DNA of 57,949 nucleotides from Candidatus Parcubacteria bacterium. GTDB taxonomy: Bacteria > Patescibacteriota > Minisyncoccia > Phycocordibacterales > UBA918. Each line of letters starts with the position of its first letter. Position 1 is the stretch's first letter. Below the pieces are notes generated by a model that was not told where the DNA came from, did not search any database, and saw nothing but the letters and a program-made list of their open reading frames with translations. This document shows, one piece after another, positions 4,563 through 55,300 of this stretch. The translations under genes and the position numbers were made by a program. The DNA lies in the NCBI GenBank assembly GCA_041173745.1, contig JBEDID010000001.1, forward strand, positions 1-57,949, read 5' to 3'.

Positions 4563-4577
4563 AACTCTTGAAACCTC

Positions 4578-4620
4578 GAGCTTCCGCGCGATTTTTTCGC
4601 TCGGAAGCTCTTTCTTTTTT
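4578..4620 (+). terminator. intrinsic terminator of the target gene
   Basis: gagcttccg(4578-4586) pairs with cggaagctc(4602-4610), with a nested gcga/tcgc stem, followed by tttctttttt. Confidence 0.65.
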
Positions 4621-4895: not shown

Positions 4896-5012
4896 TCTCG
4901 ACTCGGACGGTAACCGTGTCAACGTCGGCAACTTCGATGCCAAGGGTCTGAACGTCAACAACTGGCACGATGGCAACCGCAACGACAATCTGGGTGTGTC
5001 GGCTGACAGGCA
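4896..5012 (+). repeat. DGR template repeat (TR)
   Basis: Non-coding and adenine-rich (AAC-type triplets in the VR frame). It is the invariant partner of the VR at 4394-4510 and lies on the same strand as the VR and RT. Confidence 0.9.
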
Positions 5013-5532: not shown

Positions 5533-6468
5533 ATGGATATTGAAAAACATATTTTTGAACTGTATCGGGATTTGAAAAATGGAACATACCAACACGGACC
5601 ATATAAAGGATTCTGGATTCATGACCCGAAAGTACGACGTATACACAAAGCAACCGTGCGTGATCGAGTACTCCATCACGCCATTTTCCGTGCACTGAAT
5701 CCCATTTTTGAGCCGACATTTATTCCAAACTCTTTTTCTTGTCGTATTGGTAAAGGGACTCATAAAGGAGTAGAGAAACTTAGAGAGATGATTCGAACAG
5801 AAAGTGGCAATAATACACGCCCATGCTTTGTATTGAAGTGTGATGTGAGGAAGTTTTTTGACTCCATTGATCACACCGCATTGCTCGAAATTCTTGCTCG
5901 AAAAATCAAAGATAAAAAAGTTATGTGCCTTATGCATGAGGTCGTTGGTAGTTTCGCTGCGACTCGTGCGAATCTTTTTGACCGAAAAGGTGTGCCAATC
6001 GGTAATCTCACATCACAAATCTTTGCCAATATCTACATGAATGAGTTTGACCAGTTTGTTAAACAAGATCTCAAGGTAAAACACTATGTACGCTACACTG
6101 ATGACTTTGTCCTTATTTCTTCAGATAAGTCATATCTCGAAAAATTACTACCGTCGATGCGAGATTTTCTCAGAACAAAACTTTACCTTGAACTTCATCC
6201 AAAGAAAGTCACTCTCACAACACATCATCGTGGTATCGACTTTCTTGGGTACGTGATTTTGCCTGAACACATTAAGATGCGAAGCAAAACCAAGAAAAGA
6301 ATCCCGAGAAAATTACGTGAGAGCGTAGAACTTTACAAGAATGGTGTAATCAGTGAGTTGACGCTCAAGTCCACACTGCAATCGTATGTGGGCGTTATTT
6401 CTCATGCTGATGCTTATGAATTTGGTGTAGAAACAAGAAATAATTTCTGGTTTTGGTTGAATGAATAA
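5533..6468 (+). CDS. DGR-type reverse transcriptase
   Basis: IGNLTSQ (5998-6018) is the DGR-specific [ILV]GxxxSQ motif. YTDD catalytic box at 6094-6105. FDSIDH motif. The conserved N-terminal region continues in frame upstream of ATG 5533, back to the stop at 5443-5445. Confidence 0.9.
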   Translation: MDIEKHIFELYRDLKNGTYQHGPYKGFWIHDPKVRRIHKATVRDRVLHHAIFRALNPIFEPTFIPNSFSCRIGKGTHKGVEKLREMIRTESGNNTRPCFVLKCDVRKFFDSIDHTALLEILARKIKDKKVMCLMHEVVGSFAATRANLFDRKGVPIGNLTSQIFANIYMNEFDQFVKQDLKVKHYVRYTDDFVLISSDKSYLEKLLPSMRDFLRTKLYLELHPKKVTLTTHHRGIDFLGYVILPEHIKMRSKTKKRIPRKLRESVELYKNGVISELTLKSTLQSYVGVISHADAYEFGVETRNNFWFWLNE

Positions 6469-31606: not shown

Positions 31607-33689
31607 TGATGGTGATGGTTAAGCGCTCACGTTTTTCGCCCAATACATCAATCGCTTCAATTTCATAATTGCCAGTTTCAGTGGGGTGAAAGATGGTCTC
31701 AGTTCCTTCGGCTAGAGACTGACCGTTAACAGTCCAGGTGACTATTTTTCGGGCTTTAAGAGGGATAGTGGTGTTTTCGGTCAGAGCAAAAACATCACCC
31801 TGATGAATGCTGATAATAAGATTGTCAGTAGTTAGTAATGATTGGTGTTCAGAAACAATATCAGCTGGAAGTCCCCATTCTTCATTTCTGTTAATGTTGA
31901 AACGAGATAGATGGTCAAGTGATAAATTGTTTCCGTGATAGTAGGGGGTATTAATCATATATTCCATAACTTCATGCCAGACCGCGCCAGCACCTGTTTG
32001 GCCGGAGACTTGGTCTAGTGGCTTGTTTTCACTATTGCCCATCCATACCCCAACTACAAAGTCTGATGTGTAACCGACCACCCAGCTGTCATGAAAGTCT
32101 CGTGAAGTACCAGTTTTGACTCCGTAACCAGTAATTGGAAGTGAAAGACTACTGACTAAACCAAATTGGTTAACTCCTGTGAAGCGGTCACTGATAATTG
32201 CGTGCACTAATTCTATATAAGGTTCTTCTACTACTCGCGTGACGTCGGTGATGTGTGATTGGGGAGGTAGGTCAAAGTTGTTTGCTGAATCGGTAAGAAT
32301 CCGAAGGGGTGCAATTACTCCTTTGTTGGGAAAAATGGTGAAGTAGTGAGTGAGAGTCAGAAGGTCCATTTCTAATCCACCTAAAGCAATTCCGTATTGG
32401 TAGCTGTCATAATCCTGAATCGGTTCAAAAGCTAGGGGACCAGACAAGAAAGCATAAAACTTTTCTAGGCCAATATATTCTAAAGTTTTTACCGAAGGAA
32501 CATTTAGGCTGTTGCTGAGTGCTTCGTGCAGAGTGATAGCACCTCGATATTGGCCGTCGTAGTTTTTAGGATAAAGCGAGAAACCCGATGCGATAGGGTA
32601 TTTGTATTCCCGATCCTCAACAATAGTGTAGGGTCTCAATCCGTCGGTAAAACCTTTAGCGTAAATAAACGGTTTAACAGTTGATCCAATCGGACGAGGA
32701 GATATGGCCATATTGATTTGATTACCATCTTGTATGCTCTGAGGATTGCGTGTCCCAACTAAAGCAATGACCTCACTGGTATGAGGATTGATTATCACGA
32801 CTGCTCCATTTTTAATTTTATTAGACCAACCTTTCTCAATATGTTTAGAAAGTATTTCGCGGATATCTTCAGTGACACTGGAGTCGACAGTAGTAATACA
32901 AGTTTCTTCGCAATTAACACCAGCGGTATTAAGTTCAAAGTAAGTGTTCTTACTAAAATTATATTTTTTGGTAGTGTCTGGTTTAATAAAAGTTTCAGCT
33001 GGAGAAAACTTCTGATTTAAAAAATTAGCAATTTGTTCATTGTCTTTTTCCCAAGGATTACGAGTGCTGGGGTAGGAGAGAGTGGCGAGTAAAGAAACCT
33101 TTTCACTGTGAGAAGTGTCTTTTAGTGATTTGCCAAAATAAGCTAGACTGGCACTTTCAAAACCTTGAACCTGATTACCTAAATAAGCCGTGTTGGCATA
33201 CATCAATAATAATTCTTCCTTGGAGGTAAATAGCTCGAGACTAATCGCATAAATTACCTCAGTTAATTTGTTTGTAAAAGTACGGTCTGATTCAGTACCA
33301 AGAATATTTTTAGCTAATTGTTGGGTGATAGTACTAGCACCATAACTTCGTCCATCCTTAAGATAGTAAAATATTGCCCGTACTGTGCTCACCGGATTAA
33401 TACCAAAATGATAGTAAAAATAAGCATCTTCTTTAGCGATTAAAAGCTTTTTAAAATCTTCTGGAAGAGTGTTAAGCGGGTAAAGATAATGGCCTTTAGA
33501 ATTTTCCGTTAGGTTGATTGGAATTTGGTGGCGGTCATATATAATAACCGGCATTTGATTTTGATAACGTTGCAATGCATCGGTATATAAAAAATGCGAC
33601 GTTACTAATAATGCTATAAAACCAAACAAGACAATCGTTATAAACTTGTACTTTCTACTGATGATTATGTATCGATGTTGCAGTTTCAT
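31596..33689 (-). CDS. pbpC: penicillin-binding protein 1C (bifunctional GT51 transglycosylase / transpeptidase)
   Basis: EDAYFYYHFGINP and GASTITQQLAKN (GT51). STVKP, SNSLN and KTGTS (TPase). C-terminal Ig-like BiPBP_C-like tail. Overlaps the A2M 3' end by 11 nt in convergent orientation. Confidence 0.85.
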   Translation of the reverse strand: MKLQHRYIIISRKYKFITIVLFGFIALLVTSHFLYTDALQRYQNQMPVIIYDRHQIPINLTENSKGHYLYPLNTLPEDFKKLLIAKEDAYFYYHFGINPVSTVRAIFYYLKDGRSYGASTITQQLAKNILGTESDRTFTNKLTEVIYAISLELFTSKEELLLMYANTAYLGNQVQGFESASLAYFGKSLKDTSHSEKVSLLATLSYPSTRNPWEKDNEQIANFLNQKFSPAETFIKPDTTKKYNFSKNTYFELNTAGVNCEETCITTVDSSVTEDIREILSKHIEKGWSNKIKNGAVVIINPHTSEVIALVGTRNPQSIQDGNQINMAISPRPIGSTVKPFIYAKGFTDGLRPYTIVEDREYKYPIASGFSLYPKNYDGQYRGAITLHEALSNSLNVPSVKTLEYIGLEKFYAFLSGPLAFEPIQDYDSYQYGIALGGLEMDLLTLTHYFTIFPNKGVIAPLRILTDSANNFDLPPQSHITDVTRVVEEPYIELVHAIISDRFTGVNQFGLVSSLSLPITGYGVKTGTSRDFHDSWVVGYTSDFVVGVWMGNSENKPLDQVSGQTGAGAVWHEVMEYMINTPYYHGNNLSLDHLSRFNINRNEEWGLPADIVSEHQSLLTTDNLIISIHQGDVFALTENTTIPLKARKIVTWTVNGQSLAEGTETIFHPTETGNYEIEAIDVLGEKRERLTITITTQ

Positions 33690-36696: not shown

Positions 36697-37602
36697 ATGA
36701 TTCTTGGATCACAGGCAAAACTGGAGAACGATAACCGAGGTATCAACGTAAAGCGAGGACTGCGTACACGAGCCGAGATGGGACTGTGGGTAGGCATGGC
36801 TCCGCTTGGATATCTCACTCAAGGTTTGATGGATAAAAAGTGTCAGCTGATAGTAGATCCACTTAGAGCACCTACCGTGAAGAAGATATTTGAAAAAGTC
36901 GCTTACGAACACTGGTCAGGGCGTAAGGTATATAACTGGTTAAGATTTGAGCTGAATTTCTATACTAGAGGCAACAAACCTCTCACTCTCGGTGGTGTGT
37001 ACCGTATCCTAGAAAACCCCTTCTACTATGGAGTCTTTGAAAGACCCAGAAAAAGTGGAAACTGGTATCAGGGTAAACATACGCCACTAATTACTCAGGA
37101 GTTATTTGAGAAAGCTAAGGTACAACTAAAACGAGACCAGATTGTTCGAGAAACCAAGGAATTCGCCTTCACCAAGCTATTTACCTGCGGATACTGCGGA
37201 TCAGGTATATCAGCTGAAGAAAAGTGGAAACAACTTAAAGACGGCGGAGCTAATAGATACATCTACTACTCCTGCTCACGAGCTAGAGATCGCAACTGCA
37301 AAAACATGTATATCCGAGAAGAAGATTTGATACTAGAACTACTCAAAATACTTGATAAGGTAAATATAAATGAGCTGGGCATGCGGAAAAAACTTGAGGA
37401 CGAGATTGCTAGATTCAACATATTTCAAAGGTCAGTACTTGGAGCGAAGGAAAAGATAAAAACAGATCCTGATACTGACATTCGCAACTATGCGAAGTAT
37501 ATCTTGAAAGAAGGCACGACGATTGAGAAGCGGGAGCTACTAGCGAATTTGCGATCAAGAATAATGTACAAAGATAAAACACTCACCTTGATTAAAGAAT
37601 GA
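36697..37602 (+). CDS. large serine recombinase lacking the N-terminal catalytic resolvase domain (likely remnant)
   Basis: The recombinase domain (GLWVGMAPLGY, YNWL) and zinc-ribbon (CGYCG...YYSCS) are present. The frame is closed by TAA just upstream, so the Ser catalytic domain is missing. Confidence 0.7.
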   Translation: MILGSQAKLENDNRGINVKRGLRTRAEMGLWVGMAPLGYLTQGLMDKKCQLIVDPLRAPTVKKIFEKVAYEHWSGRKVYNWLRFELNFYTRGNKPLTLGGVYRILENPFYYGVFERPRKSGNWYQGKHTPLITQELFEKAKVQLKRDQIVRETKEFAFTKLFTCGYCGSGISAEEKWKQLKDGGANRYIYYSCSRARDRNCKNMYIREEDLILELLKILDKVNINELGMRKKLEDEIARFNIFQRSVLGAKEKIKTDPDTDIRNYAKYILKEGTTIEKRELLANLRSRIMYKDKTLTLIKE

Positions 37603-37878
37603 GGCTTTCGGGACGAATTTCTGAAATATGGTAAAATTAAGGAAATCTGACGTCGAAACATTTTTTCATTTCGACGAAATATGTTCCTTAAATTGTAATC
37701 TCAGCCTTCGGGTCCACCTTTGCGTTTCGACTACGCTTAATCTATTCTTTGAAGCAGAACTTGTTGATTGGAGTGTCACAGTTATTCAAATCTTTAACGC
37801 ACTTCACAGTCATATGTCTAAATTTAGAGCAATTATTGCAGGTGTAACGGTGGGCTGAGATCGCAACTTATTTACAAT

Positions 37879-39564
37879 ATGTCTTCACAAAATAAAAAAA
37901 TAGCGCAACAACTAATGCCGTGGTCGAATAATGAACTGGAAGATCTTTTAAAGGGATTGATTTCGCATGGTTCAGAGGTGGCTAAAATTGATTTTAAACT
38001 TGAACTTGAGACATCAACTTCTGAACAAAAGGCTGAATTACTTAAGGACATTACCGCCATAGCAAATACATACGATGACAGTAATTATGATGATTATGGT
38101 TTTGTAATTTACGGGGTGCAATCGAAGGCCATAGTTGGAATAACTTCCACTGAAAAAAATACTGATAAATTGCAGAATACCGTAGAACAAATATTGAAAA
38201 CCTATATAACGCCAATGCCCCAGATTTATGTAACTGGCTTTATAACAGCAGACAACAAAAGTTGGGGTGCCATTGTAATACCTCCACGAAATACTAAGCC
38301 CCATATGTTCTTTAAAGACATATCTTGCCCAACTAATCAAACTAAGACGCGAAAGCGTGGTGAATGGTTTGTTAGACGCGGAGCAACAATTGACCCAGGT
38401 CTCCCGGAAGATTTAGCGATACTTACGCAAAAGCAAATGGAACTTAGTTTGGAGCCATTAAAAGAAAGTATTAGAAGTTTACAGATTCGAATAGGAAAGA
38501 CTGAGGAACAATATAATAGCGCACTCTTTAAGCTCGTTGAGAGAGCATTAAAATCTCTCCCAGAGATTAGGCAATCTGCAGACCATGCCGATATAGGCGA
38601 TGACCTTGGTGAGGCATTGGGAATGGATTTACCAAGTAAGCTAAAGCAGAGACTCCGCACCCCGAAAAACGAAATAGCAGATGACCTGATTGAGGAAGCT
38701 AAAGCACTTCGTGAATATATTGAAGGTGCGGATACTGGTCTTACATGGACGCCACAACTTAACGATACGGAAAAAAACAAGCAGATGTTTACCGAGCTAG
38801 AAGAAAGAGTGAAAATGTTCCAGGTATCTGTTGCGACTATTCTCTTGAAAGACACTAAGGGTATCTATGATGAAGCTTTCCTTAAGTCACTTAAGATCCT
38901 TACCAAAGAAATAGAAATTCCGACTGGTACGCAGTACAATCGAATTGGAAAAGCTCTACGATACTATCCTCTTTATATTATTCTTTATACGATATTTGTG
39001 TGCGGTGTAGCAAGTAGCCGAGGGAAGCTACTGAGGCAGGTTCTTGATATACCTCTCAAGCATCGAGAAAGAAACGTAACATCTCCGATTACAGACGTTT
39101 ACTTTTATGCATACGAAGCAAAGGCATTGGTCAATGATGCTTTTGGTCAACGGTGGTGTGAACCTCTCGCTAATAGAGTTCGACAGCTAATAAATAACAA
39201 CATCAGTGACATGTTGACTGAGGCGTCGGAACCCGAGTACTTTTTTAAAGGCGAATTTGTTTTTTCTCTTACAAATATCGAGAAGTGTATGAGCACAGGG
39301 GAAGATGCTGACCACAGAGTTCCGTTAGGTGGGCTATATCTTTATTTGCACGAAGCACACGATCCAATACTTGATCTACTACAAGAGCTACCAGATTGGC
39401 TTACAACATTTTATAAGTATCCTCTGAATGAAATCCTAGACATGTTCGATAGAAATAATAATAAAATGTGTGAGGCGGGATGTTTTGCAACTGGCATGCA
39501 TGGAGTAAAGACGGTCGACGTGTACCAGGAAGCTCTGAGAAAAAAGCAGTTAGCTAAAGGGTAA
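37879..39564 (+). CDS. AlbA_2 (Schlafen-like putative DNA-binding) domain protein with uncharacterised 370-aa C-terminal region
   Basis: The N-terminal 180 aa contain E...IDFKLEL...LLKDITAIANT...GFVIYGV...PHMF...VRRGATI, which matches the AlbA_2 pattern. The remainder has no recognisable motifs. Confidence 0.55.
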   Translation: MSSQNKKIAQQLMPWSNNELEDLLKGLISHGSEVAKIDFKLELETSTSEQKAELLKDITAIANTYDDSNYDDYGFVIYGVQSKAIVGITSTEKNTDKLQNTVEQILKTYITPMPQIYVTGFITADNKSWGAIVIPPRNTKPHMFFKDISCPTNQTKTRKRGEWFVRRGATIDPGLPEDLAILTQKQMELSLEPLKESIRSLQIRIGKTEEQYNSALFKLVERALKSLPEIRQSADHADIGDDLGEALGMDLPSKLKQRLRTPKNEIADDLIEEAKALREYIEGADTGLTWTPQLNDTEKNKQMFTELEERVKMFQVSVATILLKDTKGIYDEAFLKSLKILTKEIEIPTGTQYNRIGKALRYYPLYIILYTIFVCGVASSRGKLLRQVLDIPLKHRERNVTSPITDVYFYAYEAKALVNDAFGQRWCEPLANRVRQLINNNISDMLTEASEPEYFFKGEFVFSLTNIEKCMSTGEDADHRVPLGGLYLYLHEAHDPILDLLQELPDWLTTFYKYPLNEILDMFDRNNNKMCEAGCFATGMHGVKTVDVYQEALRKKQLAKG

Positions 39565-39642: not shown

Positions 39643-39732
39643 TGGCGGAGAGAGAGGGATTCGAACCCTCGAAGAGCTTTCACCCTTGGCGGTTTTCAAG
39701 ACCGCTGCCTTCAACCACTCAGCCATCTCTCC
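39643..39732 (-). tRNA. tRNA-Ser (anticodon UGA), CCA encoded
   Basis: 90 nt. Acceptor GGAGAGA/TCTCTCC, anticodon loop CTTGAAA, long variable arm, T arm GAGGG-TTCGAAT-CCCTC. Confidence 0.9.
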
Positions 39733-40582: not shown

Positions 40583-40654
40583 GCTCCCGTAGTTTAATGG
40601 ATAAAACATTGGTTTGCGGTACCGGAACTCCAGGTTCGATTCCTGGCGGGAGCA
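40583..40654 (+). tRNA. tRNA-Arg (anticodon GCG)
   Basis: 72 nt. Acceptor GCTCCCG/CGGGAGC, D arm GTTT/AAAC, anticodon stem TTGGT/ACCGG with loop TTGCGGT, T arm CCAGG-TTCGATT-CCTGG. Confidence 0.8.
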
Positions 40655-47547: not shown

Positions 47548-48072
47548 TTATTCAGTTCGAGTTTTTAGGATGTAGATGTACAACACAATCATAAATCCAA
47601 ACAGAAAAGCTGACAAAAGTGGAAAGGTGACAAAGCCAAATTCAAACATAAATCTTTTGGCGCAATCGCCGCCGGAAGTGGGGCAGGCAATAAACTCATT
47701 GCCGCCCATTTGTAGGTAGTGCTGATACAACGCTACAATTAATCCAGGAATCGAAAGCAATAAACCATACCGAGCGGCTACTTTTTCTTTGTAGAAAATA
47801 GCCATTCCAAGAATAAATACTTGCGGATAAAGAAAGACGCGTTGCGTCCAACATAAACCACACGGTATAAAACCAAAGCCTTCAGAATAAACTAAAGTCA
47901 TGATGCTTGAGCCGAGAGTAAATAAAAACCCAGCCGTCATTCCCCAAACCTTAATGATTTTTTCAAACTCTCTACTGGTGTAAAGGTCTACTAATATTAT
48001 TGAGCTAACCAGCAGAACCGAAATTCCTCCTAGGGCTAAGATAAAGTTTAAAGTCTGCACTGTATCACTCAT
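47548..48072 (-). CDS. disulfide bond formation protein DsbB/BdbC family
   Basis: 4 TM segments, IPCGLCWTQR motif, and a second Cys pair CPTSGGDC. Confidence 0.8.
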   Translation of the reverse strand: MSDTVQTLNFILALGGISVLLVSSIILVDLYTSREFEKIIKVWGMTAGFLFTLGSSIMTLVYSEGFGFIPCGLCWTQRVFLYPQVFILGMAIFYKEKVAARYGLLLSIPGLIVALYQHYLQMGGNEFIACPTSGGDCAKRFMFEFGFVTFPLLSAFLFGFMIVLYIYILKTRTE

Positions 48073-48074
48073 AG

Positions 48075-48488
48075 TTATTGAATTACACAGCCGGTTTTTT
48101 CAGCCAGTTTATCAAATTGTTGGACGCCACTTAATTCGGTACCATCAGTAAATTTCCAAGTGGGGTAGCCGGTAATTTTTTCATCAATACAAACTTGAGT
48201 TTGACCATTACCGTCTTCTAGAGAACATTCTACGTAAGGTAATTTCTTTGAGTTTTCAAATAAGGCTTTTTGTTCCTGACAATGCGGACACCAAAAAGCG
48301 CCGTAAAATACCGCTCCAGCATCAGCTAAACATTGAGCGAATTCATCGGCAGAACTGTTGGAGGCTGTGGCTGTAGAGTTGTCAGCATTAGTAACTGTCT
48401 GAGCAGGAGCCTCAGCTTGGTTGTTAAAAATTAGTAAACCAATAACCGCTACCACCACTACCATCATGTATATATATGTAGTCTTCAT
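48075..48488 (-). CDS. secreted thioredoxin-fold thiol-disulfide oxidoreductase
   Basis: N-terminal TM/signal and a WCPHC active site. Coupled to the dsbB-like gene (2-nt gap). Confidence 0.75.
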   Translation of the reverse strand: MKTTYIYMMVVVVAVIGLLIFNNQAEAPAQTVTNADNSTATASNSSADEFAQCLADAGAVFYGAFWCPHCQEQKALFENSKKLPYVECSLEDGNGQTQVCIDEKITGYPTWKFTDGTELSGVQQFDKLAEKTGCVIQ

Positions 48489-48808
48489 ACCGCTAGCATA
48501 CCATTACACGCTATTCATTTCCAGATAAATAGTCCGTTTGGTTATTATATTGGAAAATTATCTAGAGTATTTTTTATGAGAAGTAGTTGTTTGTTAAATA
48601 AATTGTTATACAATCACTAGTAATAGACACCCGCAAATAAACCTTACTTATTAAATAAAATCTATGGACCTAAATAAATTTGAGGTAAATATTGGTAAAT
48701 AGGGAGGCATCCGATTTAATCTCCATAACCGCCTCCCCATTTACCCTTTGGTACCTAGTCCAACGCCAATACCTCGTATGCTTGTCATCGGGGTAGTTTA
48801 TTAATTGT

Positions 48809-48840
48809 GCCTGTCCCCATTTATGCCTGTCCCCATTTAT
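48809..48840. repeat. tandem 16-mer gcctgtccccatttat x2 (reverse complement contains AATGGGGACAG)
   Basis: Perfect tandem copies at 48809-48824 and 48825-48840. It is the same 11-mer core as the boxes at 52387-52575, but in the opposite orientation. Confidence 0.8.
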
Positions 48841-49031
48841 CGAGACCAAGGAAGAGATTAGGCGGACTCACTCCATATGAGTTCTTTTATCAAGAGACGG
48901 GTGTTGCACTTGGTGGTTGAAGGTAGCACCGATAAACTTGTCATTATCTTATATTTATTGTATGGTTATAATTGGAAGTCACTCAACCGAGTGACTATTT
49001 TGTTCTCCATAAATCAACAAAGGATACGAAA

Positions 49032-51197
49032 ATGAAAAATGATTCCCTCTTTATCATACCCATGACTACCAAGGTTTCTCAAACCAAGACAGTCTTCCAG
49101 CAACACGATCAGGACATCATCATCAATGCACCAGGTTCTCTTATGGGGAAGTTGGTTGACTTGTGTGACGGTAAATCAACAAAGACGCAGATTGTCGACT
49201 CGCTCACTACTGAGTGGGATCAAGGCTGTGTTGTTGAACTGGTTGACGAACTGTTCCGTCTTGGATTGCTTATCGAACCGAAGTATATATGTGAGGGTAT
49301 GTGGCGATACGCAACAAATCCTTCACGTTACGCTCGTGCAGTCAGCGATCAAGAAGCCACAAACTTGGCAAAAAAAGCCTGGGAGAGACACCAGACTTCG
49401 GCTGTATGCAAATACTACCAGAAATCGACATCCAACTTCAACAATCTTCTCGAAGACAGGTGTTCGACCCGCAACTTCTCGAGGTTGCCGGTCGAAGTTC
49501 AAGTTATTGTGGACATGCTCTGGTCTGGATATGGTGAATGTAGAAATACTAAACGCACCGTTCCATCGGCTGGAGCCCTGTATCCAATCGTGCTGTACTT
49601 GGGGCTCATGCGTTCGTCGGGAGAACTTTCTCCGGGTGTATATCGTGTGAGTGTTAGTCAGATGTGGTCGGTCGGGTTCGAGATGGTGTCAGAAGATATT
49701 GCTAAGTTACAAAGATCTTTTATGGACCCGATGATGGCAGAAAAAGCACACGGGGCAGTGGTTATAGGCGGTTCATTACGACGTACCGCTGAGAAGTATG
49801 GCAACCGCAGTATGCTGTACGTTCCTCTGGAAGCTGGACATGTGGCCCAGAATATCCATCTGTCCGCCTACTCCCATAAACTTGTTACGGTAGAAATCGG
49901 CGGCTTTGCCGAAGATGTGCTACACAAAGCTTGTGGAATGCCAGATGAATACATACCGATGACTACCATTCTGTTTGGTCACCCTTCACAGGAGGTCGAA
50001 AATACGACAGGTGTGTCCGAGGTTGACTGGGTCATGCCTACTGCCAGGTCCTATCAAACACCATTCGCTATTGCGCAAGCACGAGTATCGGCGGAGCTGA
50101 ATGAAGACTGGTCGTATGGGCGAGATGCCTCGCCCAGGATGGCAATGATAAAAGCTGTGTCCGAGGCAAAAGAATGGGCGGCGTGTGGTTGTGTCCCGGA
50201 AGGGTTGTTGAGGGCGCGATTGAAAGACGTACCGAATGCAATCGATCCGAGAGCTGTCATTCAGTTCCATGAAAGTCAGTACAAGCTGACGGGCTTTCCT
50301 CTAAAGCCATTTGACGAGGAAACTGCATATGAGTGGGTGGAAGGAAAAGATGAATTAACGGGTGAAAGCAAATATCTGTTGGCTGATCTTGTCTATTTCC
50401 CATATTTTGGAGAAACTCCACCATACCTATTTGCAAATTCGTCGGGTGTCGCAGCACATCCTGATTCACAAAAGGCAGTTGAATCAAGCGTGCTCGAACT
50501 GATTGAGCGTGACGCTTTTATGGTTGCCTACCTGACCAGCTTGAGTTACCCGACAATATCGGCGAGTTCTTTACCTCAGTATCTGCAGGAGCGCATTTCG
50601 ACCCTTAAGCAAGAAGGTTTTGAAGTTACTATCAAAGATCATACTCTTGACCTGGCACCTGTAGTGACCGTCTTGGTTCAAAACGAGGCATTAGCGTATA
50701 CCAATTGTGCTTCATGCTCTCGTTTTGAAATCGAATCGGCCATAGATCATGCTTTGATGGAGGCTGAAGGTTCAGTCTTAGCAAGACTTCAAAATGGTCC
50801 TGCTCCAGCACTGAAACCGTCGGATGTTGATATGCCTTTGCAACATGGAGCGCTCTACGAACAGAAAGGATATTTTCGTAGAGCCGACTTTATGTTTAAG
50901 GGAGAGGTCTGTATGATGAATGAGTTGCCTGCTCGGGTGAGTAGCTGGGGTGGTTTGCTTGATAGGCTACATCAGATGGAGGTTCCTTTGGTAACCACCC
51001 CGTTCTTTCTTTCGGAACAGTATGGTGGTAATGGTGACTTGTACATCGTGCGCTCAATTATTCCAGGACTTGTACCGATGACCTTCGGGTATCGGCAAGA
51101 GCCTGGTGGTATGAAAAGGCTGTACAACGTGGCTCGTCAGAAAGGTAAGCATTTGAGCTACGGAAACATCCGGAAGTTCCCGCATCCTTTCGCATAA
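49032..51197 (+). CDS. fused RRE(PqqD-like)-SagB-type FMN dehydrogenase-YcaO cyclodehydratase
   Basis: AGGA lies 7 nt upstream of ATG 49032. The N-terminus LVDLCDGKSTKTQIVDSL...VVELVDELFRLGLLIE is PqqD/RRE-like. The middle region RCSTRNFS, PSAGALYP and LEAGHVAQN is SagB/nitroreductase-like. The C-terminal half SSGVAAHPD...SVLELIERDAF and the terminal FPHPFA are YcaO-like. Confidence 0.8.
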   Translation: MKNDSLFIIPMTTKVSQTKTVFQQHDQDIIINAPGSLMGKLVDLCDGKSTKTQIVDSLTTEWDQGCVVELVDELFRLGLLIEPKYICEGMWRYATNPSRYARAVSDQEATNLAKKAWERHQTSAVCKYYQKSTSNFNNLLEDRCSTRNFSRLPVEVQVIVDMLWSGYGECRNTKRTVPSAGALYPIVLYLGLMRSSGELSPGVYRVSVSQMWSVGFEMVSEDIAKLQRSFMDPMMAEKAHGAVVIGGSLRRTAEKYGNRSMLYVPLEAGHVAQNIHLSAYSHKLVTVEIGGFAEDVLHKACGMPDEYIPMTTILFGHPSQEVENTTGVSEVDWVMPTARSYQTPFAIAQARVSAELNEDWSYGRDASPRMAMIKAVSEAKEWAACGCVPEGLLRARLKDVPNAIDPRAVIQFHESQYKLTGFPLKPFDEETAYEWVEGKDELTGESKYLLADLVYFPYFGETPPYLFANSSGVAAHPDSQKAVESSVLELIERDAFMVAYLTSLSYPTISASSLPQYLQERISTLKQEGFEVTIKDHTLDLAPVVTVLVQNEALAYTNCASCSRFEIESAIDHALMEAEGSVLARLQNGPAPALKPSDVDMPLQHGALYEQKGYFRRADFMFKGEVCMMNELPARVSSWGGLLDRLHQMEVPLVTTPFFLSEQYGGNGDLYIVRSIIPGLVPMTFGYRQEPGGMKRLYNVARQKGKHLSYGNIRKFPHPFA

Positions 51198-51232
51198 ACT
51201 GCGACTTAGGGCGAGGAGTATAACTCCTCGCC

Positions 51233-51880
51233 CTATTTTTTATCTAAAAAATCAACAGAGTGTAATTTATAAAGATCACTAGCTCTCAATCCACTTGCTT
51301 TTATTTTTTCTTGTACCAATTTGAAGCCTAGTGAATAGCCGGACCAACGTTTAATGGTGTCGCTGCCGAAGAACCATTCGTCATTTACCCAACCTCGTTG
51401 ATTTAAAATATCGTTTGCTTTAGTCCACAGATCATCCAATTCGTTCTCGGTAAAGGCAGTAGTATAAATAGATGGAGGTAGATCTGGTTGTACTTCTATT
51501 TCAAAATTCTGTGTTAAACCTTCTGCAATCAAAGAGTCTAGTAATGTTCCATTCTCCCACGGTATATATTGCTCACGCACTACATGCATATATTCATGAA
51601 TGAGCGTACGAGCAACTTCTGCCTCGAAGTTATTTTTAAGATGAGGATTGCTCAAATCTAAGTAGATATCAATACATCTAGCATCTTTTGTATATTGTCC
51701 TGAAATACCCAATCCAGGAATTGAGTTTTGTGGACTGTGCCGAACGACAACATCTGTTTCTACTGATTCAGTGAGAAAGATCACTTTGTCCGCTGTTGTA
51801 TCAAAGATGTCTTGCATTTGGCCAGTAACTACTTCTAGTTCTTTATTAGTTTTAAGAAAGTGATAGTGAAAAATTTGCAT
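51233..51880 (-). CDS. DUF2268-like predicted zinc metalloprotease (HExxH)
   Basis: LIHEYMHVVRE (HExxH), TLLDSLIAEGLTQNF and RWSGYSLGFKLV match the DUF2268 pattern. Start taken at ATG 51880. Confidence 0.65.
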   Translation of the reverse strand: MQIFHYHFLKTNKELEVVTGQMQDIFDTTADKVIFLTESVETDVVVRHSPQNSIPGLGISGQYTKDARCIDIYLDLSNPHLKNNFEAEVARTLIHEYMHVVREQYIPWENGTLLDSLIAEGLTQNFEIEVQPDLPPSIYTTAFTENELDDLWTKANDILNQRGWVNDEWFFGSDTIKRWSGYSLGFKLVQEKIKASGLRASDLYKLHSVDFLDKK

Positions 51881-51913: not shown

Positions 51914-51947
51914 TAAAAAAACAGGCGCGGCATTGTTGTGCCACACC
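51914..51947 (-). terminator. intrinsic terminator/attenuator after the small peptide gene
   Basis: The minus-strand RNA is GGUGUGGCA-CAACAA-UGCCGCGCC followed by UGUUUUUUUA. It lies between the peptide stop (51970) and the protease start (51880). Confidence 0.6.
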
Positions 51948-51969
51948 CGTCTGGTGGTTGAAATTGTCC

Positions 51970-52110
51970 TTACTTGTTTTCTGGCTTCTTGCCGCCACAT
52001 CTCCCGTTACCGCCACCGCCACTACGGCACTGTGATTGGAAGTTTCCGCGATCGTTGTGTCCCTGCGGAACGGTTTTGGTTGAAAAAGAGAACTTCTTTT
52101 TAGGTTTCAT
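51970..52110 (-). CDS. 46-aa Lys-flanked Gly/Cys-rich peptide, candidate RiPP precursor
   Basis: Hand translation gives MKPKKKFSFSTKTVPQGHNDRGNFQSQCRSGGGGNGRCGGKKPENK. AAGGA lies 9 nt upstream of the ATG, with its own promoter upstream and a terminator downstream. Confidence 0.5.
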   Translation of the reverse strand: MKPKKKFSFSTKTVPQGHNDRGNFQSQCRSGGGGNGRCGGKKPENK

Positions 52111-52197: not shown

Positions 52198-52225
52198 AAT
52201 ATATACTAAAACAGCTATAAGTCAA
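52198..52225 (-). promoter_or_regulatory. sigma70-like promoter for the peptide gene (TTGACT-N16-TATATT on the minus strand)
   Basis: The reverse complement of 52220-52225 is TTGACT. The reverse complement of 52198-52203 is TATATT. It lies about 85 nt upstream of ATG 52110. Confidence 0.5.
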
Positions 52226-52513
52226 CAGATTCCGCTGAAATCTCAGCAGTAGATGGTAGAGGGACGATTAATATAAAACACCCTCCACTCTAATTATGAC
52301 CACACAGCTAATGTGGCACACAGAGACTCGCAAAGTCGATGACTGGAAGGTACCCCAAATCTAAGACACCTTTTCTAAGTAATGAAGTAATGGGGACAGT
52401 GAACCGTACCCCTTAACATAGACACGAAATAGAAATAGTGATTTCATTTATGTACACAGTAAATGTTTCCGATACTCCACTGGTGACATTTTTTCTCTGT
52501 GCCATTGCTTGAA

Positions 52514-52575
52514 GTAACGGGGACATTGGTAATGGGCGGTAATGACGGTAATGGGGACAGCGGTAATGGGGACAG
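52514..52575. repeat. array of GGTAATG(GGGACAG) boxes (REP-like), plus an isolated copy at 52387-52399
   Basis: gtaacggggacat, ggtaatgggcg, ggtaatgacg, ggtaatggggacag and cggtaatggggacag lie in tandem directly upstream of the Y1 transposase gene. Confidence 0.75.
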
Positions 52576-53324
52576 TCACGATTTATCCCAAAGAAAATAT
52601 GGCATAATACACACATGCCAAGACTTGCTCGAGTAGACATCGGAAACGAAATATATCACGTAATCAATCGAGCAGTCGGTCGTCTCCAGATATTCAATAA
52701 AGACGAAGATTATAAACTGTTTGAAGACATAATGCTCGAAGCAAAGGATCTGTCTGGCATGAGAATTCTTGCCTACACTATCATGCCTAACCATTGGCAC
52801 TTAGTACTTCATCCGCAAAATGATGGAGACTTAGGAGTATTTATGCACCGATTAACAAACGCTCACACAAGGCGAGTGCACGTTAAGACTGAAACAATTG
52901 GACATGGTCCTCTATATCAAGGTCGGTATAAGTCATTTTTGGTTGACTCAGAGAAATACTTTCTTACCTTGCTTAAGTACGTAGAAAGAAATCCTGTCCG
53001 AGCAAGACTCGCTAAAAGATGCGAAGACTGGAAGTGGGGGAGCGCCTATCGCAGGAGTGCTGGAGAAACTTTTCAAAATCAGATTCTAGATGCCTCACCA
53101 GTTTCTTTTACTCTTGACTATGCAGAATGGATTAATGCTCCTGACACAGAAAGCGACCTTAGTTCAATCCGCATCTCTGTTAATAAAGGGGCACCCTATG
53201 GTAGAGAGAATTGGGTTGAAGCTATGACGAAGCTGTATAAGTTGGAGACAACGCAACGTCTGGCAGGAAGACCGAGGAAAATTAATTAGACCATGGGTAT
53301 TTTCTGAAAAATCGTGACTGTCCC
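52569..53324 (+). mobile_element. IS200-like unit: Y1 transposase gene flanked by perfect 16-bp inverted repeats
   Basis: gggacagtcacgattt (52569-52584) and aaatcgtgactgtccc (53309-53324) are exact reverse complements bracketing the ORF. Confidence 0.6.
52615..53289 (+). CDS. HUH/Y1 transposase, IS200-like (REP-associated tyrosine transposase-like)
   Basis: HUH motif in IMPNHWHLVL and catalytic Tyr region GPLYQGRYKSF. 224 aa with a C-terminal extension. Confidence 0.85.
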   Translation: MPRLARVDIGNEIYHVINRAVGRLQIFNKDEDYKLFEDIMLEAKDLSGMRILAYTIMPNHWHLVLHPQNDGDLGVFMHRLTNAHTRRVHVKTETIGHGPLYQGRYKSFLVDSEKYFLTLLKYVERNPVRARLAKRCEDWKWGSAYRRSAGETFQNQILDASPVSFTLDYAEWINAPDTESDLSSIRISVNKGAPYGRENWVEAMTKLYKLETTQRLAGRPRKIN

Positions 53325-53350: not shown

Positions 53351-55300
53351 ATGAAAGAGAATTGGGAAATTCCGTTGTTGGATAATCGAGTTGTATGTAT
53401 TGCTAATATCGAAAGCGAATCTCTTGTTGCTCAAATTTCTTCCTTGTTTGCAAGAAAGGGTCACTATTTTCCTCTCTATATGTTTCCAAATGTAAATACG
53501 GTGAGTGCTGAGTATGTAGATCGTGATTCTGACGAATTTATTTCAAATATGATTGGAAATGAGTCAGCCGTTTTCATAAATAACAGCATTGCAAAAATGC
53601 AGGGTGCTGAAACCTATCTTTTTGTTGGTCTTAGTGAATTTCAAAAAAGTTATATGTCTCAGTACATAAAGGAATTCGTTGAGATATCTGATCAGAGTGA
53701 GATCGAAACAAAGCTACATTCTATTGCTAATCTGAAGATAGAGATACTTGCTTGCAAGGAGGATGAGCTACTAAAGGGTCTTTATTTAGCCTGTATGAAT
53801 AATAAGCGCCTTGTGGTTGATAATGAGGCAGAATCATTGACTCTAGAACTTAGAGGTAAACAGGGTGTGGTAGGTGTTGAAAAAAGTAGAGAAGGACACA
53901 CATCATCAATTATTGGTGTGAATTATGCAGTATCACTGGATGCAGATTTAATAATCTTAGATCAGGTTTCTAGGCAGGAATTTGAACAAATTGAACGAAG
54001 ACTACAAAGATGGAAAGATGAGAACAATCATAATCACTTTCGTAAAGTTTGTAACAAAGCTAAAAATCGTCTTTCAGAATACGATTTGTCGCAGTATAAG
54101 TATGGGACATTTTTTACTGAGGGAATACCCTACGGACTCGGTATAGATAATCTAATACCTACAACCCATGTCCACTTACATCTAAGGCCGGATTTATTTA
54201 TAATAAATGGGATTGGAACAGAACGGGGCGGTAGATTTCATTCCGCAGTCGTTTTCTCACCACAATTTTTTACCCTAGAAGAAACAGAATCTGTAATAGA
54301 GTTTCTTCAAGAGAAAGAGTATTACGTAAGGGAGTTGGTGGGTGAAGACGCGACAACACAAAACTTAGATTTTCACGCACAGCATTTTCCGTACGACCTA
54401 CTTCATATTTGTAGTCATGGAGGAGAAATGGAAGGTTATGAGGTAACTCTAAAATTTAAAGATAGAAAAGGTGCACTCCACACTATTGTGTATGATGAGG
54501 CGGTTTCATTCTCGCCTGTGCCTGGAAAGGAATTAATATCAGTGCTTCAAAAAGCTTTTTTCCGGACACTCAATGGTTATAAGTGGATGAGTCCGCAACT
54601 GAAAGTAAAAAACTACCCTCAATATGTCTACCAGGATATGTTTAAAGCAGTAAGTAATGACAATACTCCTAGAAAGAAAAAGGCTGGAACAATTCCGTCT
54701 GCTTATGCAATCACAACTTCAGATGGTTTTAACCAGGGTGCATTTAAAATTTTATCTTCTCACAACAACCCAATTATTTTCAATAACTCCTGTTGGTCAT
54801 GGGGTCAGATTGCAACACACTTTATAGTCTCTGGTGCACGAGGCTACATAGGCACTTTATGGAAAATAGGTAACTTAGAAGCGAATATAGCTGCGAGAAG
54901 GTTTTATGCAATGATTAATGACTACTCAATCATGACTTGCCTACATTCAGCGCAGCAAGAAATTAAAGGTACAGAGTCAGAAAATGTATTCCACTACTGG
55001 GGTTTACATTTTACATCGATAGCACAAAACGGCGTCAGTGAAAAAGAAAGTCGCATTCGTGTCTTTTCAGAATTGTTACGCGCTGTTTTTGCATGGATTG
55101 ATAAAGTGAATACAACGGCTAATCCAACTATTAGAAGTAATTCTATACAGGTTGTACACGAGCTCCATAATGAATTACTTACTCATTTTACAGAGGAAGA
55201 CATGGCGAACCTTGAAAAGAAATTCAATGATCTACCAGTTCCTCAGGCAACACCTGAGCTAGGTGAATCGGATCGTAGTTCTGTCGAAAGAAAACATTAA
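53351..55300 (+). CDS. CHAT (caspase-like) protease domain protein with uncharacterised N-terminal half
   Basis: The C-terminal half has LLHICSHGG (His, codon 54416-54418 region), IIFNNSCWSWG (Cys codon 54791-54793) and GYIGTLWKI...ARRFY, the CHAT His/Cys dyad pattern. Confidence 0.65.
   Translation: MKENWEIPLLDNRVVCIANIESESLVAQISSLFARKGHYFPLYMFPNVNTVSAEYVDRDSDEFISNMIGNESAVFINNSIAKMQGAETYLFVGLSEFQKSYMSQYIKEFVEISDQSEIETKLHSIANLKIEILACKEDELLKGLYLACMNNKRLVVDNEAESLTLELRGKQGVVGVEKSREGHTSSIIGVNYAVSLDADLIILDQVSRQEFEQIERRLQRWKDENNHNHFRKVCNKAKNRLSEYDLSQYKYGTFFTEGIPYGLGIDNLIPTTHVHLHLRPDLFIINGIGTERGGRFHSAVVFSPQFFTLEETESVIEFLQEKEYYVRELVGEDATTQNLDFHAQHFPYDLLHICSHGGEMEGYEVTLKFKDRKGALHTIVYDEAVSFSPVPGKELISVLQKAFFRTLNGYKWMSPQLKVKNYPQYVYQDMFKAVSNDNTPRKKKAGTIPSAYAITTSDGFNQGAFKILSSHNNPIIFNNSCWSWGQIATHFIVSGARGYIGTLWKIGNLEANIAARRFYAMINDYSIMTCLHSAQQEIKGTESENVFHYWGLHFTSIAQNGVSEKESRIRVFSELLRAVFAWIDKVNTTANPTIRSNSIQVVHELHNELLTHFTEEDMANLEKKFNDLPVPQATPELGESDRSSVERKH

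What the first reader, a model, noticed from the sequence alone, without database searches (positions are those of the whole stretch)
49032..51197. Single-polypeptide RRE-SagB-YcaO fusion: an azole-type RiPP maturase without an E1-like partner
One 721-aa ORF (counted from ATG 49032) combines three parts in order. First comes an N-terminal PqqD-like peptide-recognition element (..LVDLCDGKSTKTQIVDSL..VVELVDELFRLGLLIE). Next comes a SagB-type FMN dehydrogenase (RCSTRNFS, PSAGALYP, LEAGHVAQN). Last comes a YcaO domain (SSGVAAHPD, LELIERDAF, C-terminal FPHPFA resembling the PxPxP tail). In canonical thiazole/oxazole RiPP systems the dehydrogenase (B), the E1-like RRE-bearing C protein and YcaO (D) are separate, or are C-D fused. 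I see no E1-like/ThiF-like gene anywhere in the window. A B-D fusion in which the RRE has moved to the dehydrogenase N-terminus would be a minimal one-enzyme azole synthetase. It would also be an unexpected natural-product locus in a reduced CPR-like genome. The gene is visibly more GC-rich than its surroundings (35/60 at 49561-49620), which is consistent with horizontal acquisition.
Basis: partly seen in the sequence, partly recalled or inferred. Interest (0 to 1): 0.85.

Follow-up and report, generated by a model that had tools for sequence, protein, structure and literature searches.

The report
One-protein thiazole peptide maturase module
A single 721-residue protein in this Parcubacteria genome joins a peptide-docking domain, an FMN oxidase and an ATP-dependent YcaO cyclase, and it sits beside its likely substrate (a 46-residue cysteine-bearing peptide) and a zinc protease; this compact three-gene peptide-modification module is widespread in ultra-small bacteria, and I found no description of it.

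Summary
ORF 49032-51197 (+) encodes a 721-aa protein with three confidently modelled parts (AF2 pLDDT 89.6). Residues 1-82 form an RRE/PqqD-type winged helix: sequence HMMs miss it (PqqD E=0.12), but its best fold matches are nearly all RiPP recognition elements. Next is a SagB-type FMN dehydrogenase with the catalytic Lys-Tyr pair (K255-Y256, aligned to McbC K201-Y202). Last is a TOMM-type YcaO with invariant Mg/ATP residues. None of the 29 larger window ORFs scanned has an E1/ThiF domain. The gene is not alone. In all 31 Patescibacteria-type loci it sits next to a DUF2268 gluzincin. In 31 of 47 loci, including Proteobacteria, it sits next to a small peptide with a conserved (K/R)FSW(K/T)(V/I) motif and a Cys/Gly/Ser-rich C-terminus. 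The window copy is 51970-52110 (-). That ORF is coding: third-position changes dominate, 202 against 86 and 77. Gene callers and family libraries miss it. Most likely this is a self-contained azole-forming RiPP system. The chemistry, and DUF2268 as leader peptidase, are inferred. It is common in CPR, not exceptional, and the GC argument for transfer is weak. I rate it a new variant of a known kind.

The parts
49032..51197 (+). Fusion gene, 721 aa plus stop: RRE, SagB-type dehydrogenase and YcaO in one polypeptide
   Evidence: ORF. Pfam and NCBIfam domains. AF2 pLDDT 89.6. More than 500 homologues, nearly all full length with the same architecture.
49032..49277 (+). Residues 1-82: RiPP recognition element (PqqD-like winged helix, order beta-beta-alpha-beta-alpha-alpha)
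   Evidence: DSSP elements E20-23, E28-31, H35-44, E46-50, H51-58, H64-76. Foldseek top hits are RRE domains: TruD, PbtF RRE 8t19, LynD, TbiB1, TigE, ThcOx, McbB, MadB, CteB, MccB. The PqqD HMM gives only E=0.12.
49278..49433 (+). Residues 83-134: helical linker and N-terminal extension of the dehydrogenase domain
   Evidence: Helices 83-94 and 106-121 in the model. The BmdC oxidase aligns from residue 63.
49434..50006 (+). Residues 135-325: SagB-type FMN dehydrogenase (nitroreductase fold)
   Evidence: PF00881 aa 141-317. TIGR03605 aa 170-305. Invariant R143/S145/R147 and K255/Y256/R259. K255-Y256 align to the McbC catalytic pair K201-Y202 (PMC6395948).
50007..51194 (+). Residues 326-721: TOMM-type YcaO cyclodehydratase domain with C-terminal FPHPFA tail
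   Evidence: PF02624 aa 363-680. TIGR03604 aa 370-721 reaches profile end 377/377. Invariant E378/E381, S470/S471/G472, E489/E492/R493/D494, H573/E577 and P717. Register to E. coli YcaO E199/E202/R203. Foldseek hits LynD, TruD, MusD, McbD.
51207..51235 (.). Bidirectional intrinsic-terminator-like hairpin between the convergent fusion and DUF2268 genes
   Evidence: 13-bp stem with 8 GC pairs and T-runs on both sides.
51233..51880 (-). DUF2268 gluzincin-type metalloprotease, 215 aa from ATG 51880; candidate leader peptidase
   Evidence: PF10026 E=2.4e-23. Invariant HExxH plus a downstream Glu (H95/E96/H99/E120). Adjacent to the fusion gene in all 31 Patescibacteria-type loci.
51919..51952 (-). 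Hairpin plus T-run between the precursor gene and the DUF2268 gene (attenuator-like)
   Evidence: 14-pair stem followed by TTTTTATAC.
51970..52110 (-). Precursor peptide gene, 46 aa: MKPKKKFSFSTKTVPQGHNDRGNFQSQCRSGGGGNGRCGGKKPENK
   Evidence: Conserved small-ORF family next to the fusion gene in 31 of 47 loci. AAGGAAA RBS and ATG. Codon-position differences of 86/77/202 show it is coding. No Pfam or NCBIfam family matches.
52198..52225 (-). Sigma-70-like promoter for the precursor gene (TTGACT-16-TATATT)
   Evidence: 10 of 12 consensus matches, the joint-best score in the region. This is a consensus match only.

Best explanation
This is a compact three-gene RiPP module of the linear azole-containing-peptide (TOMM/LAP) type. 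The 46-aa peptide (51970-52110, minus strand) is the substrate. Its conserved N-terminal (K/R)-F-S-W/F-x-(V/I/T) motif docks as a beta-strand onto the N-terminal RRE of the 721-aa enzyme. This step is inferred from the fold and from the motif being conserved together with the enzyme. The YcaO domain then uses ATP to activate the backbone amide before each Cys (C28 and C38 here, possibly Ser as well) and closes a thiazoline or oxazoline ring. The fused SagB-type FMN domain oxidises each azoline to an azole through its Lys255-Tyr256 pair. The chemistry is inferred from intact catalytic residues and from the closest characterised relatives. No E1-like (C) or Ocin-ThiF (F) partner is needed, because the RRE is supplied in cis at the dehydrogenase N-terminus. 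The neighbouring DUF2268 zinc metalloprotease probably removes the leader; this is the weakest inference. Shown here: the three-domain architecture, the conserved residues, the gene linkage across phyla, and the coding status of the peptide.
For: Architecture: Pfam and NCBIfam domains; confident AF2 model; the N-terminal domain's best fold matches are nearly all RiPP RREs, several solved with leader peptide bound. Catalytic competence: invariant ExxE, SSG, ExxERD and E577 in YcaO, in register with E. coli YcaO E199/E202/R203; invariant RxSxR and K255-Y256 aligned to McbC K201-Y202 at E=1.6e-14 (PMC6395948). Closest models and structures are azoline-forming or azoline-oxidising enzymes: TIGR03604 scores 165 bits against 53 for the thioamidation model; LynD, TruD, MusD, McbD, McbC, BmdC and ThcOx are hit. 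Substrate: an FSW-motif peptide with a Cys/Gly/Ser-rich C-terminus lies next to the enzyme gene in 31 of 47 loci, from Patescibacteria to Alpha- and Betaproteobacteria where the enzymes are only 26-36% identical, while all other neighbours differ. The ORF is under purifying selection. Proteobacterial versions add a C39-peptidase ABC exporter, HlyD and a YheCD-like ATP-grasp, which are typical RiPP accessories. No E1/ThiF gene is in the window, and none recurs in the 47 loci. The window has a promoter, RBS, attenuator-like hairpin and terminator arranged as in RiPP operons.
Against: There are no biochemical data. The protein scores below NCBIfam trusted cut-offs for both SagD (165 against 219 bits) and SagB (66 against 78 bits). 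The PqqD HMM is not significant, and RREs fused to dehydrogenases have been called possibly vestigial (PMC7470986). The C-terminal tail is PHPFA, not a full PxPxP. The window peptide has only two Cys, and one relative (L028) has none. No exporter or immunity gene is linked in the Patescibacteria loci. Within Patescibacteria the C-terminal 'core' is as conserved as the enzyme, which is unlike typical bacteriocins. No precursor could be recognised in about 13 of 47 loci, mostly the most divergent Betaproteobacteria. The role of DUF2268 is untested, it has no solved relative, and it is absent from the proteobacterial loci.
Confidence: 0.68

Rival explanations
1. Same module and same peptide substrate, but different chemistry. 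The YcaO domain makes a thioamide, an amidine/macroamidine or only azolines, or acts as an ATP-dependent peptidase like MusD. The nitroreductase-fold domain would then perform another oxidation, for example forming a dehydro-amino acid as in the MNIO-nitroreductase PflD.
For: YcaOs without an E1-like or Ocin-ThiF partner are best known from non-azole chemistry such as bottromycin amidines and thioamidation (established knowledge; Cox 2015). MusD (7u58) and the thioamidating Mj and Mk YcaOs rank high in sequence and fold searches. A nitroreductase domain was recently shown to make dehydro-Phe (PMC12636437). Scores fall below the SagD and SagB trusted cut-offs.
Against: No TfuA or sulfur-delivery gene is linked. 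The SagD model scores three times higher than the thioamidation model. The Lys-Tyr pair specific to azoline oxidases is invariant and aligns to McbC. The nearest characterised oxidase relatives (McbC, BmdC, ThcOx) all oxidise azolines. Cys next to Gly is the recurring core feature.
Confidence: 0.15
2. The N-terminal RRE is vestigial and the enzyme is not self-sufficient. It would depend on an unlinked E1-like or Ocin-ThiF partner, or another scaffold encoded elsewhere in the genome.
For: RRE-Finder's authors consider RREs fused to dehydrogenases possibly vestigial (PMC7470986). Canonical azoline-forming YcaOs are strongly activated by the C protein (Cox 2015). Only one 58-kb contig of this genome could be examined.
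Against: The N-terminal domain is well conserved across the family down to about 28% identity (alignments start at residues 5-35; G47 invariant, C45/W62/L70/L74 at 90% or more). It is the only RRE in the module, and the peptide carries a co-conserved strand-like motif across phyla. No E1-like gene recurs in 47 neighbourhoods. Reduced CPR genomes are unlikely to keep a scattered system.
Confidence: 0.1
3. The enzyme is a housekeeping protein-modifying factor, comparable to YcaO for McrA thioamidation or as the S12/RimO accessory, and the small ORF is not its substrate.
For: The gene pair is very widespread in reduced genomes and is flanked by housekeeping genes with no transporter. JGI auto-annotations call some homologues 'S12 methylthiotransferase accessory factor'. 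One CPR survey speculated about MCR thioamidation (PMC12153355).
Against: The S12-type model scores only 16 bits and the McrA model 53 bits, against 165 for SagD. An RRE is a peptide-leader-binding device. The peptide is the only partner conserved across both phyla, and it is under purifying selection. Proteobacterial versions sit with peptide exporters. CPR bacteria have no MCR.
Confidence: 0.05

Closest known systems
Microcin B17 synthetase McbBCD (LAP/TOMM archetype)
   Same: Both have an ATP-dependent YcaO cyclodehydratase, an FMN dehydrogenase with a catalytic Lys-Tyr pair (K201-Y202 aligned to K255-Y256), an RRE that binds the leader, and a Gly/Cys/Ser-rich core in a small precursor. Fold matches to McbD, McbC and the McbB RRE are seen.
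   Different: Mcb has three separate proteins in an octameric complex, and its RRE sits on the E1-like scaffold McbB. Here there is one polypeptide, no E1-like domain, and the RRE is at the dehydrogenase N-terminus. Mcb has dedicated export and immunity genes; the Patescibacteria module has none linked.
Cyanobactin heterocyclases LynD/TruD/PatD and the oxidase ThcOx
   Same: LynD and TruD are the best fold matches, both for the whole protein and for the N-terminal RRE. ThcOx shows that an RRE-nitroreductase fusion exists (5lq4).
   Different: LynD and TruD are RRE-E1-like-YcaO (C-D) fusions, with the oxidase on another protein. ThcOx has RRE-like domains but no YcaO. Here the order is RRE, oxidase, YcaO, and the E1-like domain is missing.
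Partner-independent ('standalone') YcaOs such as those of bottromycin, and the Mj/Mk thioamidation YcaOs
   Same: They have no E1-like or Ocin-ThiF partner. The YcaO core and ATP site are shared.
   Different: They have no fused RRE or dehydrogenase, and their chemistry is amidine or thioamide formation rather than azole formation.
Split B-then-D operons in Actinobacteria (loci L054, L061, L062)
   Same: The closest non-fused relatives have a nitroreductase gene immediately followed, often with overlapping stop and start codons, by a YcaO gene in the same order.
   Different: These are separate polypeptides, and some loci carry a second YcaO. No FSW peptide or DUF2268 was noted there, although their neighbourhoods were not analysed in depth.
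BmdC, thiazoline oxidase of the bacillamide NRPS
   Same: It is among the best sequence and fold matches to residues 63-318, and it is also an azoline oxidase.
   Different: It acts on a carrier-protein-tethered NRPS intermediate and is a stand-alone protein.

Membership tests
TOMM/LAP azole synthetase (BCD-type) | YcaO (D) domain with intact Mg/ATP-binding acidic residues | tested here: met
   PF02624 E=2.7e-35. E378/E381, E489/E492/R493 and E577 are invariant. Register to E. coli YcaO E199/E202/R203 confirmed.
TOMM/LAP azole synthetase (BCD-type) | Scores above the curated cut-off of TIGR03604 (SagD family) | tested here: not met
   165.3 bits against a cut-off of 219.25. It is the best-scoring YcaO model by far and aligns to profile end 377/377.
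TOMM/LAP azole synthetase (BCD-type) | C-terminal proline-rich PxPxP-type tail of azoline-forming YcaOs (my knowledge of Dunbar et al. 2014, not verified in a held paper) | tested here: inconclusive
   The protein ends in FPHPFA. P717 is invariant, and H718 and P719 are at 90% or more. The last Pro is replaced by Ala. McbD itself ends in MVPFP.
TOMM/LAP azole synthetase (BCD-type) | E1-like (C) or Ocin-ThiF-like (F) partner, separate or fused to D | tested here: not met
   No ThiF/E1 domain in the protein or in the 29 larger window ORFs scanned. No such gene family recurs in 47 neighbourhoods. The rest of the genome was not available.
TOMM/LAP azole synthetase (BCD-type) | FMN dehydrogenase (B) with the catalytic Lys-Tyr pair | tested here: met
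   PF00881 E=3e-12. K255-Y256 are invariant and aligned to McbC K201-Y202 (PMC6395948). TIGR03605 scores 66.2 bits, below its cut-off of 78.4.
TOMM/LAP azole synthetase (BCD-type) | Adjacent small precursor with a conserved leader and a Cys/Ser/Thr-rich core | tested here: met
   The FSW-motif peptide is found in 31 of 47 loci. The window copy is 51970-52110 (-). It is coding by codon-position test.
TOMM/LAP azole synthetase (BCD-type) | Azol(in)e rings demonstrated in the product | not testable with these tools
   This needs co-expression and mass spectrometry.
RRE / PqqD-like peptide recognition element | Significant match to PqqD (PF05402) or RRE sequence models | tested here: not met
   PF05402 E=0.12, 13.2 bits against a cut-off of 23.4. 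There was no hit on the full-length scan. A profile against PDB finds the LynD RRE region only at E=1.3.
RRE / PqqD-like peptide recognition element | Winged-helix fold with three strands and three helices, superposable on solved RREs | tested here: met
   The model has pLDDT 86-94 over residues 11-80. Foldseek gives TruD rmsd 2.4 A over 81 columns, PbtF RRE TM 0.66 and TbiB1 TM 0.58, with probability 1.00.
RRE / PqqD-like peptide recognition element | Binds the leader of its cognate precursor | not testable with these tools
   This is inferred from the co-conserved FSW motif. No further structure jobs were available for a complex prediction.
TfuA-associated thioamide-forming YcaO | Adjacent TfuA gene, and a best match to the thioamidation YcaO models | tested here: not met
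   No TfuA hit among the window ORFs scanned. TIGR03266 scores 53 bits against 165 for SagD.
DUF2268 (PF10026) zinc metalloprotease | Pfam match above cut-off, with HExxH and a third zinc ligand | tested here: met
   83.1 bits against a cut-off of 23.6. H95/E96/H99/E120 are invariant in 27 sequences. Protease activity and leader cleavage were not tested.

The most novel reading that the evidence does not exclude
The module encodes a truly self-sufficient single-polypeptide azole synthetase, the smallest known, that needs no E1-like activator. In Patescibacteria its product would not be an arms-race bacteriocin. It would be a conserved, strongly basic, thiazole-containing peptide with a fixed cellular or host-directed role, such as a factor of the episymbiotic lifestyle, a ribosome or nucleic-acid ligand, or a metal-binding peptide. 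This would explain why the core is as conserved as the enzyme and why no exporter or immunity gene is linked.
Probability: 0.25. Interest if true: 0.82.

Novelty: new variant of a known kind. Interest (0 to 1): 0.66.

Why it matters
Azole installation normally needs two or three proteins, and the E1-like partner is regarded as the leader-binding activator of YcaO. A natural one-chain RRE-oxidase-YcaO enzyme with a short, defined recognition motif would be a compact tool for peptide engineering. It would also test whether YcaO activation by the E1-like domain can be dispensed with. The module further gives ultra-small, host-dependent Patescibacteria a widespread and largely unannotated peptide natural product. 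Its precursor genes are almost absent from public protein catalogues: the family profile finds only 11 matches among 5.8 billion proteins. Finally, it assigns a candidate role to DUF2268, a family with no known function.

Tried and rejected
- Looking up the window's own proteins in the encoding-contig index, to get precomputed neighbour annotations, found nothing. I scanned the ORFs against Pfam directly instead.
- Adding E. coli YcaO to the full-length alignment with mafft --add gave a mis-registered alignment. I replaced it with a profile of the YcaO domain alone.
- Apparent 'B-D fusions' in Actinobacteria (L054, L061, L062, L071, L085) turned out to be adjacent, separate B and D genes joined by tblastn.
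- The GC-content argument for horizontal acquisition is not distinctive.
- Motif and composition searches for a precursor in the most divergent betaproteobacterial loci (L037, L040, L042, L043, L045, L046, L048, L051) found nothing convincing.
- I considered that the conserved small ORFs might be frames of a non-coding RNA element, because several overlapping small-ORF clusters appeared. I rejected this: one frame carries the conserved peptide, third-codon-position changes dominate, and Rfam finds only tRNAs in the window.
- Eight literature queries found no description of this architecture, of any YcaO-DUF2268 link, or of the peptide. The key YcaO review (PMC5406272) is not held, so a brief mention there cannot be excluded.
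Full report
OBSERVATION. The ORF is real. The mechanical ORF runs 48972..51197 (+). The ATG at 49032 is preceded by an AAGGA RBS-like site and gives 721 aa. Most of the 120 listed homologues are full length (typically 721-740 aa) and align from residue 1, which supports that start. The identical protein is on record from an NCBI MAG named Candidatus Parcubacteria bacterium, on a contig of the same length as the window. Pfam places Nitroreductase at aa 141-317 (E=3e-12) and YcaO at aa 363-680 (E=2.7e-35). NCBIfam places the SagB domain TIGR03605 at aa 170-305 (66 bits) and the SagD-type TOMM cyclodehydratase TIGR03604 at aa 370-721 (165 bits, reaching the last profile position). Both scores are below the curated cut-offs. 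The thioamidation model scores 53 bits and the S12-accessory model 16 bits.

THE N-TERMINAL DOMAIN. Sequence models do not establish it. PqqD PF05402 gives no hit on the full protein and E=0.12 on residues 1-135. A profile of the family's N-termini finds the RRE region of LynD only at E=1.3. Fold does establish it. The AF2 model of the whole protein is confident (pLDDT 89.6, pTM 0.87). It gives strands 20-23 and 28-31, helix 35-44, strand 46-50, and helices 51-58 and 64-76, which is the PqqD/RRE order. A separate model of residues 1-130 has pLDDT 82.8. Searched against the PDB, it returns RiPP recognition elements almost exclusively. The hits are TruD (rmsd 2.4 A over 81 columns), the PbtF RRE solved with bound leader (TM 0.66), LynD, lasso TbiB1 with leader, TigE, ThcOx, McbB, MadB, CteB and MccB. 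E-values are modest (3e-3), as expected for an 80-residue domain, but Foldseek's probability is 1.00 for the top matches.

CATALYTIC COMPETENCE. In the dehydrogenase domain, R143/S145/R147 and K255/Y256/R259 are invariant. A profile of this domain aligns to McbC at E=1.6e-14 and places McbC K201-Y202 on K255-Y256. The McbBCD structure paper describes K201-Y202 as the catalytic pair (PMC6395948). In the YcaO domain, E378/E381, S470/S471/G472, E489/E492/R493/D494 and H573/E577 are invariant. A profile alignment to E. coli YcaO puts G182, E199, E202 and R203 on G472, E489, E492 and R493. The roles of those E. coli residues are from my knowledge of Dunbar et al. 2014. The whole-protein fold search ranks LynD, TruD and MusD first, followed by the Mj and Mk YcaOs, BmdC, McbD, McbC and ThcOx. 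The tail FPHPFA is a near-PxPxP motif (P717 invariant). McbD itself ends in MVPFP.

NO E1-LIKE PARTNER. None of the 29 larger ORFs of the window has a ThiF/E1 or TfuA domain. No such family recurs in the neighbourhoods of 47 homologues. The rest of the genome could not be examined.

THE FAMILY AND ITS NEIGHBOURS. An exhaustive HMMER search finds 378 representatives of 50%-identity clusters at E<=1e-30. Most of the best 150 are 700-780 aa and align end to end, down to about 28% identity. In species-representative genomes the full-length fusion occurs in many Patescibacteria lineages: Paceibacterota, Parcubacteria, Kaiserbacteria, Kerfeldbacteria, Magasanikiibacteriota, Moraniibacteriota and bins labelled Saccharibacteria. 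At 26-39% identity it also occurs in Alpha- and Betaproteobacteria, including cultured Cupriavidus and Rhizobacter isolates. Flanking genes differ from locus to locus and are mostly housekeeping. All-against-all clustering of every ORF of 25 aa or more within 4 kb of the gene in 47 loci found two recurrent partners.

The first partner is a DUF2268 protein. It is adjacent in all 31 Patescibacteria-type loci and absent from the proteobacterial ones. In the window it lies at 51233-51880 (-), with PF10026 E=2.4e-23. HExxH and a downstream Glu are invariant.

The second partner is a small peptide. It is recovered by HMM in 29 loci, and a motif search adds L035 and L044, giving 31 of 47. Further candidates appear in L008, L033, L049 and L050. 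The peptides share an N-terminal (K/R)-F-S-W-(K/T)-(V/I) motif and a Cys/Gly/Ser-rich C-terminus. Examples are MKNPKKFSWKVTSKDKPLPGTIVCQEQCSSGGGGNGKCGTGK from a Patescibacteria locus and MQKAVKASKPKAPVPVKFSWTVRRTGKASVPVKIPTGCCGGK from a proteobacterial one.

The window copy is MKPKKKFSFSTKTVPQGHNDRGNFQSQCRSGGGGNGRCGGKKPENK, at 51970-52110 (-). Gene order and strand vary between loci (fusion then DUF2268 then peptide on the opposite strand; fusion then peptide then DUF2268; or, in the window, peptide then DUF2268 convergent with the fusion gene). The three genes nevertheless stay together. In Proteobacteria the peptide follows the enzyme gene directly. The neighbourhood there adds a C39-peptidase ABC transporter, a HlyD protein and a YheCD-like ATP-grasp.

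THE PEPTIDE IS A GENE. Across 11 equal-length pairs, differences by codon position are 86, 77 and 202, so third positions dominate. The window copy has a promoter-like site (TTGACT-16-TATATT, 10 of 12) and an AAGGAAA RBS. A hairpin with a T-run follows the stop codon, ahead of the DUF2268 gene. A strong bidirectional terminator separates the convergent genes. The peptide matches no Pfam or NCBIfam family. A profile of 26 members finds only 11 proteins among 5.8 billion, and none is named beyond 'hypothetical'. Gene callers largely miss it.

MECHANISM. The best-supported reading is a LAP-type RiPP system. The leader motif docks on the cis RRE. The YcaO domain cyclodehydrates Cys (possibly also Ser). 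The fused oxidase aromatises the azolines. DUF2268 removes the leader in Patescibacteria, a role that the C39 exporter could fill in Proteobacteria. What is shown: the architecture, the residue conservation, the gene linkage and the coding status. What is inferred: leader binding, azole chemistry and the protease's role.

Two observations do not fit a classical bacteriocin. No exporter or immunity gene is linked in Patescibacteria. And within that group the C-terminal 20 residues are at least as conserved (about 56%) as the enzyme (44-49%), although the Gly-rich low-complexity run inflates that figure.

COMPARISON AND NOVELTY. Several elements are already known. C-D fusions are described, as is a dehydrogenase fused to PatG (Cox 2015, PMC4603692). 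RREs fused to dehydrogenases are described and were thought possibly vestigial (PMC7470986). Partner-less YcaOs are known. CPR surveys have reported antiSMASH 'YcaO' RiPP regions without analysing them (PMC12153355). I found no description of three things: an RRE-B-D single chain, its FSW precursor family, or a YcaO-DUF2268 link. The main YcaO review was not available. The closest non-fused relatives are split B-then-D operons in Actinobacteria. I therefore rate it a new variant of a known kind.

The locus is common in CPR rather than exceptional. The GC signal is weak: 0.478, z=1.8, lower than ruvB, with a GC-poor partner gene. However, the module is bracketed by inverted copies of a CTGTCCCCATT repeat and lies next to a Y1 transposase, so local mobility is possible.

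Noticed in passing
window 48805-48838 (+) and 52387-52576 (-): Six of the eight window matches to CTGTCCCCATTA (up to 2 mismatches; 3.5 expected by chance) cluster at the two ends of the three-gene module, in inverted orientation. The same motif forms part of 40-nt inverted repeats (52569-52608 and 53285-53324) that flank the IS200-like Y1 transposase gene at 52615-53289. These may be REP/RAYT-like elements that could mobilise the module.
   Followed up: partly
window 48807-48920 (+): A 37-aa ORF ending in ...RPRKRLGGLTPYEFFYQ looks like the C-terminal remnant of an IS30-type transposase, just upstream of the fusion gene. It gave no Pfam hit because it is too short. The resemblance is from memory only.
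   Followed up: no
window 5533-6468 (+) and 3624-5000: A 311-aa reverse transcriptase (RVT_1, E=1e-27) lies next to the most GC-rich kilobase of the window (4001-5000, GC 0.558) and to a 297-aa ORF with no Pfam hit. This could be a retron, DGR or group II intron. The Rfam gathering scan found only tRNAs.
   Followed up: no
window 53351-55300 (+): A 649-aa protein with a C-terminal CHAT (caspase-like) domain (E=5e-8; HICSHGG...NNSCW) lies directly after the Y1 transposase. It may be a defence or effector gene.
   Followed up: no
window 36697-39564 (+): A serine recombinase (Recombinase plus Zn_ribbon_recom) is followed by a 561-aa Schlafen/AlbA_2 protein and flanked by tRNA genes (39646-39732, 40583-40654). 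This looks like a small integrated island.
   Followed up: no
window 25103-33689: A 2167-aa bacterial alpha-2-macroglobulin is paired with a convergent PBP1c-like transglycosylase/transpeptidase. This is the classical A2M-PBP1c pair, which is notable in a reduced CPR genome.
   Followed up: no
window 47548-48488 (-): DsbB and a thioredoxin-fold protein lie directly upstream of the module. They are not conserved next to the module in other loci, so the placement is probably coincidental, although the precursor does carry Cys residues.
   Followed up: partly
L033:45-179 (+) and L033:2553-2783 (+): A divergent fusion locus (31% identity) has two candidate precursors with an I(G/S)FTVT motif. One has an extreme Cys-rich tail (...CGCDCECDSDCQCDCGCGCNCDCAGDCGQD), which suggests much heavier heterocyclisation or metal binding in some relatives.
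   Followed up: no
L029:5431-6423, L031:8179-9156, L047:4967-5923; L030:548-4155: Proteobacterial versions of the module carry a YheCD-like ATP-grasp/TTL-type ligase next to the precursor. L030 also has a C39-peptidase ABC exporter plus HlyD. These point to extra tailoring and to export in that branch.
   Followed up: partly
window 48895-48909 (+) and 51938-51952 (+ strand coordinates): A 15-nt, 93% complementary pair (AGACGGGTGTTGCAC and GTGCCACACCCGTCT) links the region upstream of the fusion gene with the hairpin that follows the precursor gene. Its significance is unknown and it may be chance.
   Followed up: no
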